Origin: Felis catus
Taxonomy: Eukaryota
DNA: 64,000 bases
Assembly: GCF_018350175.1 (NCBI RefSeq)
Contig: NC_058381.1
Coordinates: forward strand, 56,854,001 to 56,918,000
Reading direction: 5' to 3'
The notes under the pieces are model-generated. The model saw only the letters and a list, made by a program, of their open reading frames with translations. It did no database searches and was not told the origin of the DNA. Within the stretch, counting starts at the first letter, position 1, and each line of letters begins with the position of its first letter. The position numbers and the translations under genes were made by a program. Positions 19,802-30,790 of the stretch are shown piece after piece.

Positions 19802-25740
<5,939 letters not shown>

Positions 25741-26193
25741 TCACTCCGCAACCACCTCCCGGGCCTCGGGTTGGGCACGCGGCTGCCGTCTTCCCCGCCC
25801 CCGGGCCACTAGTGGTGAGCCATTGGCTTGGGCGCCTCCGGGGTCCGCCCTCACACTCCCCGGCTCGCCGCCATGTTGGGAAGGTCAGGCCGATGGAGGC
25901 GCCTCCTCACTGCGGTCCCGCCTCTCCCGCTCCCGCTTCCGCTGTGTACGTCACTTCCGGAAGCGAGCGCTCACTCCGCCGCCCGTTTCCGGCGTGCGAG
26001 CAGCCGAGGCCACCTGTCTTCCCTGTCTTCTCTGCCAGGTCTTTGGTCTCTTGCCGCACGGCCACACCGTCCCCCGAGGGGTGTGTTCCCCGCCCTTGCT
26101 GTCCCGTTGCGGCGACCCGACGGGGCCCGCGAAGGGCCACGTGGCGCCGGTGAGACGGCTCCAGCCGGTCCCGGGGTCCCCCGCGTGCCCAGC

Positions 26194-26361
26194 CTGGCAA
26201 CCTGGCGCCCTCCGCTGCTCGCGGCCCGCCGGGGGGCCACCGACTCCCCCACGGGCGAGCGTGGCCTTCGAGGGCATGTGGTTCGGGCCCAGCGCTTTCG
26301 GTTCTCAGAGGAGCCGGGCCTGGGGGCTGAGGGGACGGTGCTGGAGGTCAGCGTCCCGCAG
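26194..26361 (+). CDS. METTL23: METTL23 exon 1: putative in-frame N-terminal extension (start uncertain, candidate CUG at 26194)
   Basis: Open frame ...RAQRFRFSEEPGLGAEGTVLEVSVPQ, donor CAG|GTGCGT after 26361, joins in phase 0 to 28600 (VLHLQYG-MYVWP). Confidence 0.6.
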
Positions 26362-26890
26362 GTGCGTGCAGCGGCACCCGCCGGGGGGCGCCTCCGGCCC
26401 CTTGCGGTGGCGCCCGGGGCAGGAGCTGTTCTCAGTGGCCTGGGCGGGGGGGGGGGGGGGGGGTGTTGGGAGGGGGTGGGGGACGGGCTCTGGCGGCTAC
26501 CCTGCCTGAGGAAGGGCCTCCGAGCGGGAAGGGTCGCGGTGGGAAGCCCTCTGACAGTCTTGAAGTAAGAAACTTGGGGGTCCTGCCAGGAAGAGAGCCC
26601 TCCGCATCAAATATTTCCTGCCCGAAAAGTGACATTTTGGACACCGAACACTTCCTTTGACCTAGTAGAAGGGCTTCTTAATTCAGCTTTATCTAGGATC
26701 GGGAATTCTACCCTCACTATCCGAATAAAGTTCCGTGGGTTGGCACCCGTTCCTTCCGGTTTACAGCTGCCCCAAACTCTCAGTAATAATAGTAATACTT
26801 TATGCGTCCGGTTTTTCGAAGCATTTTGACGTGGCCGTGTTTAGATTTCAACGGCAGTGGGTGAGGTAGGTATTAGCGAAACAATTCAAA

Positions 26891-27232
26891 GGGGCGTCCG
26901 ACTCTTGATTTGGGCTCGGGTCGTCGTCGTCTCAGCTCAGAGCCTGCTTGGGGTTCTCCCTCCCGCTCTCTGATCCTCCCCCACTCACACTTGCGGTCTC
27001 TCTGTCTCAAAATACATAAATATTTTTTTTAATATTTTTATTTATTTTGAGACAGAGAGAGACAGAGCATGAGCAGGGGAGGGGCAGAGAGAGAGGGAGA
27101 CACAATTTGAAACAGGCTCCAGGCTCTGAGCTGTCAGCACAGAGCCCGACATGGGGCTCGAACTCAGGGACCGCGAGATCATGACCCGAGCTGAAGTCAG
27201 ACGCTTAACCGACTGAGCCACCCAGGCACCCC
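26891..27232. mobile_element. Degenerate + SINE (26891-27020) with a - SINE (27023-27232) in its tail
   Basis: Opposed SINE bodies; TAAATATTTT on both flanks of the - copy. Confidence 0.82.
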
Positions 27233-28599
27233 TAAATAAATATTTTAAAGATGATAAATGGGTAAGAGGAGGTAAAGTCTCGAGTGAAACCGTTTCTAAC
27301 AGTTTTTAAATGCCTTCCCGTTGAAATACCCACTCGATTTCTTCCCTCATTTAGGAGGTGAAGATACTCCGTGTGAGAAGAAAGACCTCTTTCCACCCAA
27401 ATCGGCAAACTCAACTGCTGTGATCAGAAACCCTTTAATGTATCTTGGGTGAAATCTACCAGGGCAGGCATTTTATTCACCATGCACGCCCTACACTTAA
27501 GACCCAGTGCCTAGCATATTTTAGGCACTAAAATTTTGGAGAGTGAATTGAATGAATTGAGTTCAAACTTCCAGTTCCTTCACCTTTGGTACTTTGAAAA
27601 CTCGAGCGCCGTTTCCAACCACAAGCAGCACCCTTTGCTCTAGAAAACAGACTTGCGGTTTTGCAGTCTTTTAATAACCGCTCAAGGTGTGTGCTCATTT
27701 TGTGCCTGGTGCTGTACTAAGTTTGCGTCGAATCTTCCACCATCACCCTATGGGATAGTGTTTTGCGGTGGCGGAAACTGAAGCACGGACAGGTTGAATG
27801 GCAGGTGAGGTCCCACAGGTAGTCAGTTACATATCTGGAGTTTGAACTCAGGCAGGCTCGTTCCAAAGGCGTGAGCCGTTTAATTTGCCTCTCTCGCAAT
27901 TCTGTGTCTTTGCAAAGGCTCTGTATGCTGCCTGCCTTCCTAACTCCAGAACCGAGCTGCACTCAAAGCTCTTCTGGAATGTCTCCCTAGCCTGTTTCCC
28001 AGGACCATACCAAACTGCCTGTGATTATAATCCTCGGATACATTCTTACTGCACTTAAAAGCTAAACTTCCTGTGGCCCAGAAGACCACATAGGTCTGGT
28101 CCCTGCCTTCCCTCTGACCTCTGCTTGTACTACCACAACCCTGCCTCCAGCCCCCATGCGCTTGCTGTGGGTGCTGTCTGAACCGTTCTCCCTATCTAGG
28201 ATAGCCACCTTGTGATCACTGTCCCCCCATCGTTCCCTGCCCCCACCACTGCCATCACCCGGTTTTGTTGTGTTAGCACCCACACCAGCCAAAAACATAT
28301 TCGCTTACTTGTGGCTTGTCTCTTCCTAGTAGGGTATGTATGTACATGTGTGTTCCATGAGCTTTACATCCATAGCCCACGAAATCACTCCCAGTCCCTG
28401 AAATAAATGCTTGTTGAGTGGAGAGTGGCTATCCTGTGGTATTGCAGTTTCATATGCCCCATAGGATGTGAACTTTACAGCAGGGAATCACCGTTTTTGT
28501 AATAGATGCCAGTGTCAGGCACTCAGTAATTGCTGTAAAAATAAATATTCCAACTTCCAGCAGATGAGTTATTTTTGGCTTACAAAAAATTCTTTTCAG

Positions 28600-28704
28600 G
28601 TCCTGCACCTCCAGTACGGAATGTATGTTTGGCCCTGTGCGGTGGTCCTGGCTCAGTACCTGTGGTTTCACAGAAGATCTCTGCCAGGCAAGGCTGTCTT
28701 AGAG
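28600..28704 (+). CDS. METTL23: METTL23 exon 2 (AUG at 28621)
   Basis: TTTTCAG|GTCCTG acceptor; GAG|GTACAA donor. Confidence 0.93.
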
Positions 28705-30790
28705 GTACAAGTGCCCCTGAGGTTTCCAAGAATCCCATGTTCAGATCTAAGTCTATGTGCTGGTTACTGGCTTTTGTTTGATATTTTAAAATCAGATGAT
28801 TTGGCCCGCTTGTAAGTTCTATGAGCTAAGAACGCTTTTTACACTTTAAGTTGTGTAAAAAAAAGAACGTATACCAGAGACCACAGGAGACCCACCAAGA
28901 CTAAAATATTTATCATCTGGCCCGTTAGAGTTTGCCGACCCTTACCCGACCCTTACTCTAAGTGAAGCCCATTGATTAGTTTCAGTTTTAGACTCTTGGT
29001 ATGGAAGCAATCCCTAAGGCCCTCTTTCCAGGGTGTCCCAACTGGGTCATTTGGGGTCTACTGTGACATGTGCGGTTTCTCAAAAAACAGCCCTTTCCAT
29101 TTTTGGAAATCTTGAGTGTCCTCTACTTTTCCTGATCACTTCACTCGAGACCACTGACGGCTTAGAGAAAAAAACTTTTGTCAAGTTTGCACACAGTACA
29201 ATGCTTAAACTCTAAGGCTGAAGACAAATCCAAAACTTGTAACCCCTCTGAACTTTTGCAGAACCACGTAAATGAATGGTGTGAAGGCACTTGGCATGCT
29301 GTAGCTGGCAATTTGTAGACATTCAGATTGAGAATCTCCCCACCCGTCCTTAAAACTGGAAAATGGGAAACTTGTGCTTCAACCAAATAGACACTAAAGG
29401 CATTCCTTAGTTATTCCTTAGTATGCTTAAGACTTCAGCACTTTGAAGTCCCAACTGGAAAATCCCCTTTAGTATGAACCCCGTTGAAGATCTGTCGGGC
29501 TAGAGCCACATAAAAGAGGTTACAATTGGTAGTAACAGCCAGAATGGCTGTATGCATGCAAGTCACCCATCAAGCTTCTGGAGACCCAGTGTCCCATATA
29601 ATTGGGAGCTCTTTTATGGACTGTGAGAGAACTAAATGCCGCTAGTGTCCAAACTGCCTGGGGCATATTCAGCAATAAACTGCCAGAGATGCCCATGGGA
29701 ATTTGGAAGCAATATTGTCAGTTGCAGAATTTAGGGCCCTGTATGGGACTTAACCTTTCAATCCAATTGAGAGACACCACTTGATTTCTACAAACCCAAA
29801 AACCTAAGCTTCACATACAAAGGCAATGTCTAATTATGGCACACTGTGCATACATGAGCTCAAGAATATACTTAACTCCCTGACCCTGTACTCAGGGAAA
29901 CTAAAACCCCAAATTCCCTGCGATGCTAAGGAAAACTTTGAAATGTGATCTTTTATATTCATCAGATTGGGGCCGGAGTGAGCCTTCCAGGAATCGTGGC
30001 TGCAAAATGTGGCGCCGAGGTAATACTGTCCGACAGTTCAGAGCTGCCTCACTGCCTAGAAATGTGCCGTCAGAGCCGGGAAATGAACAACCTGCCACGG
30101 GTGCGTGTTGTAGGACTAACGTGGGGCCACGTATGTCCGGATCTCCTGGCTCTGCCACCACAAGACATCATTCTTGCATCTGATGTGTTCTTTGAACCAG
30201 AAGGTAAACGTTTTTTTGCGCTTCAGTCATAAATTTGGCTGAAGGTGATTTAAGTTCTTTTAAGGAAAGTCCTTTCTTCCCAGACTTTGAAGACATCTTA
30301 ACTACAGTGTACTTTTTGATGCAAAAGAACCCCAAGGTCCAACTGTGGTCTACTTACCAGGTAAGAAGGTAAGCCTGCGTAATCCTGGGTTTTACTCTAA
30401 ATTGTACTCTAGGTTAAAGATTGAATTGGATTCCCCGTGCGGGTCACGATCTCCCGGGGCCCATGAGATCGAGCCCCACGTTCCGGTCCTGCTTGGATTC
30501 GCTCTCCTTCTGCCCCTCCCCTGCTCATACTCTGTCTCAAACAAAAACCTTTAAAAATACATATATCTAAAGCAAAACAGGAAAAGCAGAATTTCAAAAA
30601 AACAATTTATTTCTTTTTCAGTGCTGACTGGTCACTTGAAGCTTTGCTCTACAAGTGGGATATGAAATGTGTCCACATTCCTCTGGAGTCTTTTGGTGCA
30701 GACAAGGAAGATATAGCAGAATCTGCCCTCCCAGGAAGACATACTGTTGAAATGCTGGTCATCTCCTTTGCAAAAAAGGACAGTCTCTGA
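28621..30790 (+). CDS. METTL23: METTL23 methyltransferase, spliced CDS from AUG: join 28621-28704, 29966-30203, 30284-30368, 30622-30790 = 576 nt, 191 aa
   Basis: MYVWPCAVVLAQYLW...VLE|IGAGVSLPG (SAM motif I)...DIILASDVFF...FAKKDSL*; GT-AG introns in phase. Confidence 0.96.
28790..28941 (+). mobile_element. MER58B-like fragment
   Basis: CTAAAATATTTATCATCTGGCCC...GTTTGCCGACCC terminus. Confidence 0.6.
29966..30203 (+). CDS. METTL23: METTL23 exon 3 (238 nt)
   Basis: IGAGVSLPGIVAAKCGAEVILSD...DVFFEPE; CAG acceptor, GTAAAC donor. Confidence 0.95.
30284..30368 (+). CDS. METTL23: METTL23 exon 4 (85 nt)
   Basis: FEDILTTVYFLMQKNPKVQLWSTYQVR; donor AAG|GTAAGC preserves frame. Confidence 0.9.
30440..30560 (+). 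mobile_element. CAN-SINE fragment in METTL23 intron 4
   Basis: GATCGAGCCCCACG...CTGCCCCTCCCCTGCTCA body. Confidence 0.65.
30622..30790 (+). CDS. METTL23: METTL23 exon 5 coding part
   Basis: ADWSLEALLYKWDMKCVHIPLESFG...FAKKDSL*; TGA 30788-30790. Confidence 0.94.

What the first reader, a model, noticed from the sequence alone, without database searches (positions are those of the whole stretch)
26194..28623. METTL23 probably starts upstream of its first exon-2 AUG, at a CUG in strong Kozak context
Seen: exon 1 is open and splices in phase 0 (CAG|GT 26361 to 28600), giving ...RAQRFRFSEEPGLGAEGTVLEVSVPQ-VLHLQYG-MYVWP. An in-frame CTG at 26194 has A at -3 and G at +4 (AGCCTGG) and would add 63 residues. 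The only in-frame ATG (25873) overlaps a YY1-like site upstream of the ETS-CRE element and may not be transcribed. Known: METTL21/22/23-family enzymes have a G-x-x-x-W motif with N-terminal strands before it, and AUG 28621 falls inside that motif (YG-MYVW). From memory, mouse METTL23 is annotated with an AUG-initiated extension of similar size (unverified). Inference: the functional protein is longer and non-AUG initiated.
Basis: partly seen in the sequence, partly recalled or inferred. Interest (0 to 1): 0.7.

Follow-up and report, generated by a model that had tools for sequence, protein, structure and literature searches.

The report
Overlooked CUG start of METTL23
In this cat-type gene for the methyltransferase METTL23, a CUG codon 63 codons before the annotated start likely begins the complete enzyme, adding two predicted beta-strands that the reference protein lacks; this was already predicted for human in 2011 but was still unannotated in the records checked.

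Summary
Observation confirmed. CTG 26194 (A-3, G+4) is in frame through exon 1 into exon 2, 63 codons before ATG 28621. The window alone proves little: such an open frame arises in 48% of shuffles. Homologues carry the case. The last 36 residues of the extension are conserved in placentals; marsupials, reptiles, birds and fish start them at an AUG; and a Ser-Leu-Ala peak sits exactly at the CUG (Leu 20 of 21). A model folds the extension into two beta-strands matching solved METTL21/FAM86A structures. It is not new: Ivanov et al. 2011 list this CUG as candidate #38. It was still unannotated in GENCODE v35, and cat RefSeq carries the 191-aa form. Against: a 21.5 kDa endogenous band in human cells, no direct initiation evidence found, an alternative exon-1 donor that would skip the CUG, and one camel model with a shifted frame. 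The scan had not noted this gene before. Verdict: a published, unvalidated prediction, strengthened here by a structural argument, with real consequences for METTL23 biochemistry and variant reading.

The parts
25816..25818 (+). In-frame TGA that bounds the open frame upstream
25868..25879 (+). YY1-like site (label recalled) holding the only in-frame upstream ATG (25873); likely upstream of the main transcription start
   Evidence: human main transcript inferred to start about 80 nt downstream of it
25947..25963 (.). CRE-like and ETS-like motifs in the JMJD6/METTL23 bidirectional promoter (labels recalled, not tested)
26147..26155 (+). Possible alternative exon-1 donor (26149|26150, 7 of 9 consensus positions); its use would skip the CUG
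   Evidence: seal and camel models that join this point to exon 2 (P0152, P0413, P0488)
26191..26197 (+). CUG start codon (26194-26196) with A at -3 and G at +4
   Evidence: same codon predicted in human
26194..26280 (+). Placental-specific Arg/Pro-rich leader, residues -63 to -35; predicted largely disordered
26276..26278 (+). Out-of-frame AUG opening a 62-codon frame that ends at 28700-28702, past the annotated AUG
26281..26307 (+). Predicted beta-strand 1 of the N-terminal hairpin (residues -34 to -26)
26338..26361 (+). Predicted beta-strand 2 (residues -15 to -8; ends in exon 2) and the exon-1 donor at 26361|26362
28600..28704 (+). Exon 2 (105 nt, a multiple of three); holds Y-G-M-Y-V-W-P with the invariant Trp
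28621..28623 (+). Annotated AUG of the 191-aa form; an internal, non-invariant position in homologues
29966..30203 (+). Exon 3 (motif I, D-x-x-F motif)
30284..30368 (+). Exon 4
30622..30790 (+). Exon 5 coding part, to the stop

Best explanation
METTL23 translation in this cat-type gene likely starts at CUG 26194, giving a 254-residue (28.4 kDa) protein whose extension is predicted to supply the two N-terminal beta-strands of the Family 16 methyltransferase fold, so the annotated 191-residue form would be an incomplete enzyme. Mechanism, step by step. SHOWN: the frame, the context and the exon join; conservation of residues -36 to -8 and of Ser-Leu-Ala at -64 to -62; AUG starts 39-52 residues upstream in non-placental vertebrates. 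PREDICTED: the two strands. INFERRED: the transcript starts downstream of ATG 25873; scanning ribosomes initiate at the CUG at a modest rate; many that pass it are caught by the out-of-frame AUG 26276, whose 62-codon frame ends beyond AUG 28621 and so lowers use of that AUG. INFERRED history: the ancestral AUG at about -47 (kept in marsupials) was replaced by a CUG at -63 in the placental stem, and muroid rodents regained an AUG at -35. The short form can still arise by leaky scanning or from transcripts that use the donor at 26149.
For:: in 21 non-muroid placental sequences that reach past -63, mean column identity is 0.39 (-87 to -67), 0.48 (-66, -65), 0.90 (-64 to -62), 0.66 (-61 to -37) and 0.84 (-36 to -8); Leu 20 of 21, Ser 18 of 21, Ala 19 of 21. 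Residues that replace Ser (Ile, Ala; Gly in marmot) or Ala (Gly, Glu) have codons that begin with a purine or with G, as a start context needs (codons inferred from residues); 25 of 46 non-placental rows (P0075-P0120) have 39 or more residues before the motif Met, each with a Met 39-52 residues upstream; nine marsupial species start at -46 or -47; among 91 of 145 distant representatives that match the motif, the annotated-start position is Leu in 44 and Met in 28; 75 of 86 Met-starting ones have 20 or more residues upstream (median 41); strands at model residues 38-46 and 57-65; the extended model aligns 22-27 more residues to FAM86A (197 vs 175), METTL21D (196 vs 169) and METTL21A (192 vs 167). 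Ivanov 2011 #38 predicts the same CUG and an out-of-frame AUG before the annotated AUG; the 190-aa human protein was insoluble in E. coli and stayed bound to GroEL.
Against:: immunoprecipitation from human lymphoblastoid cells gave a band reported as 21.5 kDa, absent in a patient; I saw the text, not the blot; tagged 'full-length' human METTL23 (start not stated in the passages read, presumably the 190-aa form) supported H3R17 methylation in vitro. AlphaFold folds the short form confidently (pLDDT 95), so the model shows no misfolding. METTL23 appears in Fedorova 2022 only in the list of unannotated 2011 candidates (1 of 12 searchable files), so apparently in neither their PhyloCSF set nor their ribo-seq set. 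It is absent from the supplements of three start-site studies. A Camelus ferus model (P0486) passes from the out-of-frame AUG into the main frame inside exon 1: a frameshift there, or an assembly or model error. The 21 placental sequences are a biased sample, because only open frames become protein models. 6 of 46 non-placental rows also start at the motif Met. The hairpin downstream of the CUG is no stronger than shuffles (z -0.72). The cat transcription start was not determined.
Confidence: 0.78

Rival explanations
1. The short AUG form (190-191 aa) is the main working protein in placentals; the CUG form is minor.
For: 21.5 kDa endogenous band; in vitro activity of tagged human protein; possible upstream donor that skips the CUG; no hit in the start-site data sets searched; the short form keeps the invariant Trp and the core motifs.
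Against: Residues -36 to -8 are 84% conserved by column in placentals and coding in other vertebrates; the ten closest solved relatives all align from within the extension; the short form was insoluble and chaperone-bound; an out-of-frame AUG precedes the AUG in cat and human.
Confidence: 0.12
2. The extension is real but AUG-initiated from the YY1-site ATG 25873, either read straight through (361 aa) or as an 11-nt mini-exon spliced to the CAG just before the CUG.
For: The ATG is in frame in cat, tiger, lion, horseshoe bat, gibbon, chimpanzee and desman models and titi monkey. A donor at 25883|25884 scores 7 of 9, and a join to the CAG at 26192 would be in frame. Whale, sheep, gelada, pangolin and ibex models begin M-L-G and jump to near the Leu.
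Against: It is out of frame in snow leopard, mouse and Arvicanthis models; Ivanov 2011 reports in-frame stops upstream in macaque, hyrax, rat and pig. The human main transcript holds the extension at index 172, while the chimpanzee model puts the ATG 252 nt before the Leu, so that transcript starts downstream of the ATG. Residues upstream of -64 are poorly conserved. Saccopteryx, marmot and P0073 lack the Ser codon that supplies the AG. The tract before 26192 has only 2 T in 20 nt, against 7-11 at the real acceptors.
Confidence: 0.06
3. The extension starts at another near-cognate codon, such as GUG 26278 (-35), which matches the muroid AUG position.
For: A start at -35 would keep both strands; Val is at -35 in 13 of 21 placental sequences; muroids start exactly there.
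Against: Primates, panda, desman and P0056 have Gly, Ala or Glu at -35; the cat GUG has C at -3; this does not explain the conservation peak at -64 to -62.
Confidence: 0.04

Closest known systems
Human C17orf95/METTL23 CUG extension, candidate #38 of Ivanov et al. 2011 (PMC3105428, Supplementary Dataset 1; entry read)
   Same: Same gene, same CUG, same 63-residue extension, similar masses (28.2 vs 21.4 kDa in human; 28.4 vs 21.5 kDa here), an out-of-frame AUG before the annotated AUG, AUG starts in mouse, rat and opossum.
   Different: This is the cat orthologue. Its out-of-frame AUG is in exon 1 (26276), not just before the annotated AUG. The entry gives no structural argument and suggests mitochondrial export (0.97), which I find weakly supported.
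Mouse METTL23 (A2AA28, 253 aa) and other muroid forms (224-226 aa); marsupial forms (236-237 aa)
   Same: They contain the same two-strand segment and the same exon 1-exon 2 join.
   Different: They start at AUG (-35; mouse also -63; marsupials -46/-47) and, mouse apart, lack the Arg/Pro-rich leader.
Exclusive or near-exclusive non-AUG genes such as EIF4G2 and R3HCC1 (passages in PMC3105428 and PMC9789052)
   Same: A near-cognate start upstream, with an out-of-frame AUG that hinders the downstream AUG.
   Different: METTL23 has one such AUG, not several; a short product has been reported; exclusivity is untested.
Family 16 lysine methyltransferases METTL21A-D, FAM86A/EEF2KMT, CaM-KMT (PF10294)
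   Same: Same fold, invariant Trp, motif I and D-x-x-aromatic motif; N-terminal strands before the Trp motif.
   Different: METTL23 is reported to methylate an arginine (H3R17), an assignment that a 2024 review says needs more biochemical evidence.

Membership tests
Family 16 methyltransferase (PF10294), METTL23 orthologue | Pfam match above the curated cut-off and identity to named METTL23 | tested here: met
   67.7 bits against cut-off 21; short form identical to Felis catus RefSeq XP_003997231.1
Family 16 methyltransferase (PF10294), METTL23 orthologue | Invariant active-site Trp, motif I and D-x-x-[Y/F] | tested here: met
   W4 and D101 invariant, E28/G30/G32 at 90% or more in 106 sequences; motif definitions from PMC5324768 passages
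Family 16 methyltransferase (PF10294), METTL23 orthologue | N-terminal strands before the Trp motif, as in solved relatives | tested here: met
   Met only with the extension, on a predicted model of the panda orthologue; absent from the short form
Family 16 methyltransferase (PF10294), METTL23 orthologue | SAM-dependent methyl transfer to a protein substrate | not testable with these tools
   Literature only
Conserved non-AUG N-terminal extension (Ivanov 2011 class) | In-frame near-cognate codon in a good context | tested here: met
   CTG, A-3, G+4
Conserved non-AUG N-terminal extension (Ivanov 2011 class) | Extension conserved as protein across species | tested here: met
   protein level only, biased to open frames; one camel model disagrees
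Conserved non-AUG N-terminal extension (Ivanov 2011 class) | Start codon conserved as DNA | tested here: inconclusive
   CTG seen in this window and in the human mRNA printed in the supplement; for other species only Leu was seen; no orthologous DNA was found
Conserved non-AUG N-terminal extension (Ivanov 2011 class) | No in-frame AUG in the transcribed leader | tested here: inconclusive
   ATG 25873 is in frame; cat start site undetermined (laid no reads); human inference puts it outside the main transcript
Conserved non-AUG N-terminal extension (Ivanov 2011 class) | Direct evidence of initiation (ribosome profiling, N-terminal peptide, reporter) | not testable with these tools
   None found in the supplements searched
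Exclusive non-AUG initiation (EIF4G2/R3HCC1 type) | Out-of-frame AUG whose frame overlaps the downstream AUG | tested here: met
   ATG 26276, 62 codons, stop at 28700; context G-3, U+4, so leaky
Exclusive non-AUG initiation (EIF4G2/R3HCC1 type) | No product from the downstream AUG | not testable with these tools
   A 21.5 kDa band in human cells argues against exclusivity
Mitochondrial presequence | Basic amphipathic helix without acidic residues at the N-terminus | tested here: inconclusive
   First 20 residues hold 3 basic, 1 acidic and 3 Pro in cat; 2-7 Pro and hydrophobic moment 0.22-0.74 across 21 placentals; low-confidence region in the model; no dedicated predictor run

The most novel reading that the evidence does not exclude
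In placental mammals other than muroid rodents the complete METTL23 enzyme is made only from this CUG, and the 190-residue reference protein used in human studies is a truncated fold. Then its insolubility, chaperone binding and membrane-like staining are artefacts, its true substrate has been sought with the wrong protein, the last 168 nt of the human exon-1 'UTR' are coding and can carry disease alleles, and exon-2 skipping in METTL23 glaucoma gives an in-frame internal deletion instead of a lost start. A bolder add-on (about 0.1) is that the placental-only leader sends part of the enzyme to mitochondria.
Probability: 0.5. Interest if true: 0.6.

Novelty: already known. Interest (0 to 1): 0.38.

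Why it matters
METTL23 is a human disease gene (recessive intellectual disability, normal-tension glaucoma) whose substrate assignment a 2024 review says needs more biochemical evidence. The papers read treat the human protein as 190 aa. If the working enzyme is the CUG form, there is a simple fix for an old problem: express the extended protein (or a rodent-like form starting at -35) to get soluble enzyme, and repeat the substrate and localisation work. Diagnostic pipelines would need to read exon 1 as coding. Skipping of the 105-nt exon 2 would keep the frame, which changes the predicted product of the glaucoma allele. The start-site idea itself has been in a supplement since 2011, so the surprise is limited to METTL23 specialists.

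Tried and rejected
RNA evidence in cat: 4 of 24 listed runs were laid on exon 1 and gave 0 reads or contigs; the tool marks this as no test, so the transcription start and junction use are open. In one search, 14 RNA or possibly-RNA runs hold 0.76-0.95 of the sampled words of 25950-26400; only 2 are on record as RNA and the 2 holders laid gave nothing, so I do not count this as evidence. Orthologous DNA in metagenome contigs: 594 pattern matches, none confirmed. Downstream hairpin as an enhancer: a stem can start 13 nt after the C of the CUG, but z is -0.72 and 49 of 200 shuffles fold as well; rejected as evidence. AlphaFold as a test of misfolding: uninformative. Sequence search of solved structures: local alignments of the mouse protein to METTL21 chains begin only at residues 53-64, so the strand match rests on the fold comparison. 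Mitochondrial targeting: weak features, and absent in marsupials, most muroids and non-mammals; kept only as a side bet. A search with the extension alone returned 10 proteins, 1 of them new. Reiff 2014 and Lee 2012 were not held; the TISCA supplement could not be read. Earlier findings of this scan: none on this gene.

Full report
Observation. The window holds METTL23 on the + strand, head to head with JMJD6 (ATG at 25575-25573 on the - strand). Exons are 1 (to 26361), 2 (28600-28704), 3 (29966-30203), 4 (30284-30368) and 5 (30622-30790); joined, they give one open frame. The 191-aa product from ATG 28621 is identical to Felis catus RefSeq XP_003997231.1. CTG 26194 has A at -3 and G at +4 and adds 63 codons, for 254 aa and 28.4 kDa against 21.5 kDa. 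The frame is open back to TGA 25816 and holds one ATG, at 25873. None of this is unusual in 73% GC DNA: the last 56 codons are open in 47.8% of 5000 shuffles and a CTG in this context appears in 12.8%.

The extension is coding. A search with exon 3 returned 136 proteins, 120 listed. Of the 46 non-placental rows P0075-P0120, 25 have 39 or more residues before the Met-Tyr-x-Trp-Pro motif, 6 have 7-21, 6 start at the motif Met and 9 lack the motif (other splice forms or odd models). Each of the 25 has a Met 39-52 residues upstream. Nine marsupial species start at -46 or -47. Muroid rodents start at -35; mouse has Met at both -63 and -35. Among 145 more distant representatives, 91 matched my motif pattern and 54 did not; at the annotated-start position they have Leu 44 times and Met 28 times, and 75 of the 86 that begin with Met have 20 or more residues upstream, median 41. 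So the annotated AUG sits at an internal position that is not even fixed as Met.

The start is most likely the CUG. I aligned 21 non-muroid placental sequences (18 named, 3 unnamed) picked because they reach past -63. Column identity is 0.39 and 0.48 upstream, 0.90 at -64 to -62, 0.66 from -61 to -37 and 0.84 from -36 to -8. Leu is at -63 in 20 of 21; the exception has Ser-Leu-Glu three codons further up. The flanking substitutions seen (Ile, Ala, Gly before; Gly, Glu after) fit a purine at -3 and G at +4. This is read from residues: I saw the DNA only for this window and for the human mRNA. The sample is biased, since only open frames become protein models. One Camelus ferus model shifts frame inside exon 1 (P0486) and is an unexplained counter-example.

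What the extension does. An AlphaFold model of the panda orthologue with the extension (P0190, 106-sequence alignment; mean pLDDT 89.3) puts strands at residues 38-46 and 57-65, i.e. -34 to -26 and -15 to -7, and leaves residues 1-20 below pLDDT 50. Against solved structures it aligns to FAM86A with Z 25.3, 1.8 A, 197 residues; METTL21D (7oat) Z 25.0, 2.1 A, 196; METTL21A Z 23.6, 2.5 A, 192, each from model residue 36-38. The short cat form aligns 175, 169 and 167 residues and enters METTL21D at residue 32 instead of 13 and METTL21A at 44 instead of 18. The short form still folds confidently in AlphaFold (pLDDT 95) and keeps the invariant Trp, so loss of activity is inferred, not shown.

How the short AUG is likely held down, and how it can still be used. 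An out-of-frame ATG at 26276 (G-3, U+4) opens 62 codons that end at 28700, past ATG 28621; horse-family, alpaca and leaf-nosed bat models start at the same codon, and human has an equivalent just before the AUG. A possible donor at 26149|26150 would remove both the CUG and this ATG and leave only the short form; seal and camel models join there. ATG 25873 is in frame in several models and out of frame in snow leopard, mouse and Arvicanthis. The human main transcript holds the extension at index 172 (my reading of the column nte_find), whereas the chimpanzee model has 84 codons between that ATG and the Leu, which puts the start about 80 nt downstream of the ATG. For cat the start site is undetermined: 4 runs laid gave no reads.

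Prior art. Ivanov et al. 2011 (PMC3105428; passages and part 16 of Supplementary Dataset 1 read) list C17orf95 as candidate #38: CUG initiation in most mammals, AUG in mouse, rat and opossum, a 63-residue human extension, 28.2 against 21.4 kDa. The gene is not named in the main text as held; Table 1 is not held as text. Fedorova et al. 2022 (PMC9789052; passages, part 1 of file 10, 12 of 13 supplements searched) list METTL23 among 28 such genes still unannotated in GENCODE v35, and nowhere else. A search for METTL23 with non-AUG found 0 papers; in two broader searches none of the 30 and 25 listed papers held METTL23; METTL23 with ribosome profiling gave 4 papers, seen as listings only. Supplements of PMC5749180, PMC12718117 and PMC13501135 had no hit. 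I found no validation and no refutation in the held library; subscription papers and current annotation releases were not checked.

METTL23 literature (passages only). PMC4082365: the 190-aa protein was insoluble in E. coli and could not be released from GroEL, which fits an incomplete fold; the same paper reports a 21.5 kDa endogenous band, the strongest point against my reading. PMC9621137 treats exon-2 skipping as loss of the start codon and reports H3R17 methylation by tagged protein from HEK293T cells. With the CUG start, skipping the 105-nt exon keeps the frame. PMC3547847 found chaperone partners and membrane-like staining for tagged METTL23. [quoted passage not shown] PMC5324768 defines the invariant Trp and shows N-terminal regions matter in yeast Efm2. 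PMC13410288 (2026) still shows a 190-aa model.

Verdict. Real feature, most likely a CUG-initiated complete enzyme (0.78). It was predicted in print in 2011, so novelty is 'already known'. Interest 0.38.

Noticed in passing
window 28685-28693 (exon 2): A GC-type donor at 28687|28688 would join the +1 frame of exon 2 to exon 3 in frame. Models of this kind (about 186 aa, or 220-221 aa from the exon-1 out-of-frame AUG) recur in many mammals and in a lizard. They would lack the invariant Trp.
   Followed up: partly
window 28600-28704: Exon 2 is 105 nt, so skipping it keeps the CUG frame; models with exon 1 joined to exon 3 exist in bat, horse, elephant, mole-rat, galago, hamster, a marsupial and reptiles.
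   Followed up: partly
window 26016-26039: A strong pyrimidine tract (17 of 20) with CAG at 26036-26038 inside exon 1 looks like an acceptor; joined to the donor at 25883 it would put ATG 25873 out of frame.
   Followed up: no
window 25400-25575, - strand: JMJD6 coding start, about 300 nt from the YY1-like site; the two genes share a GC-rich bidirectional promoter.
   Followed up: no
proteins P0486, P0487 (Camelus ferus): The models pass from the out-of-frame AUG into the main frame within exon 1, whereas the alpaca model P0026 does not; a lineage-specific frameshift or an error.
   Followed up: no
proteins P0036, P0174 (unnamed; their cluster includes pig-family entries): Ser-Leu-Glu at -67 to -65 instead of Ser-Leu-Ala at -64 to -62, as if a short duplication moved the start three codons upstream.
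   Followed up: partly
window 26957-27178 and 30452-30544: Inverted and dispersed repeats in introns 1 and 4 that look like carnivore SINE pieces (label recalled).
   Followed up: no
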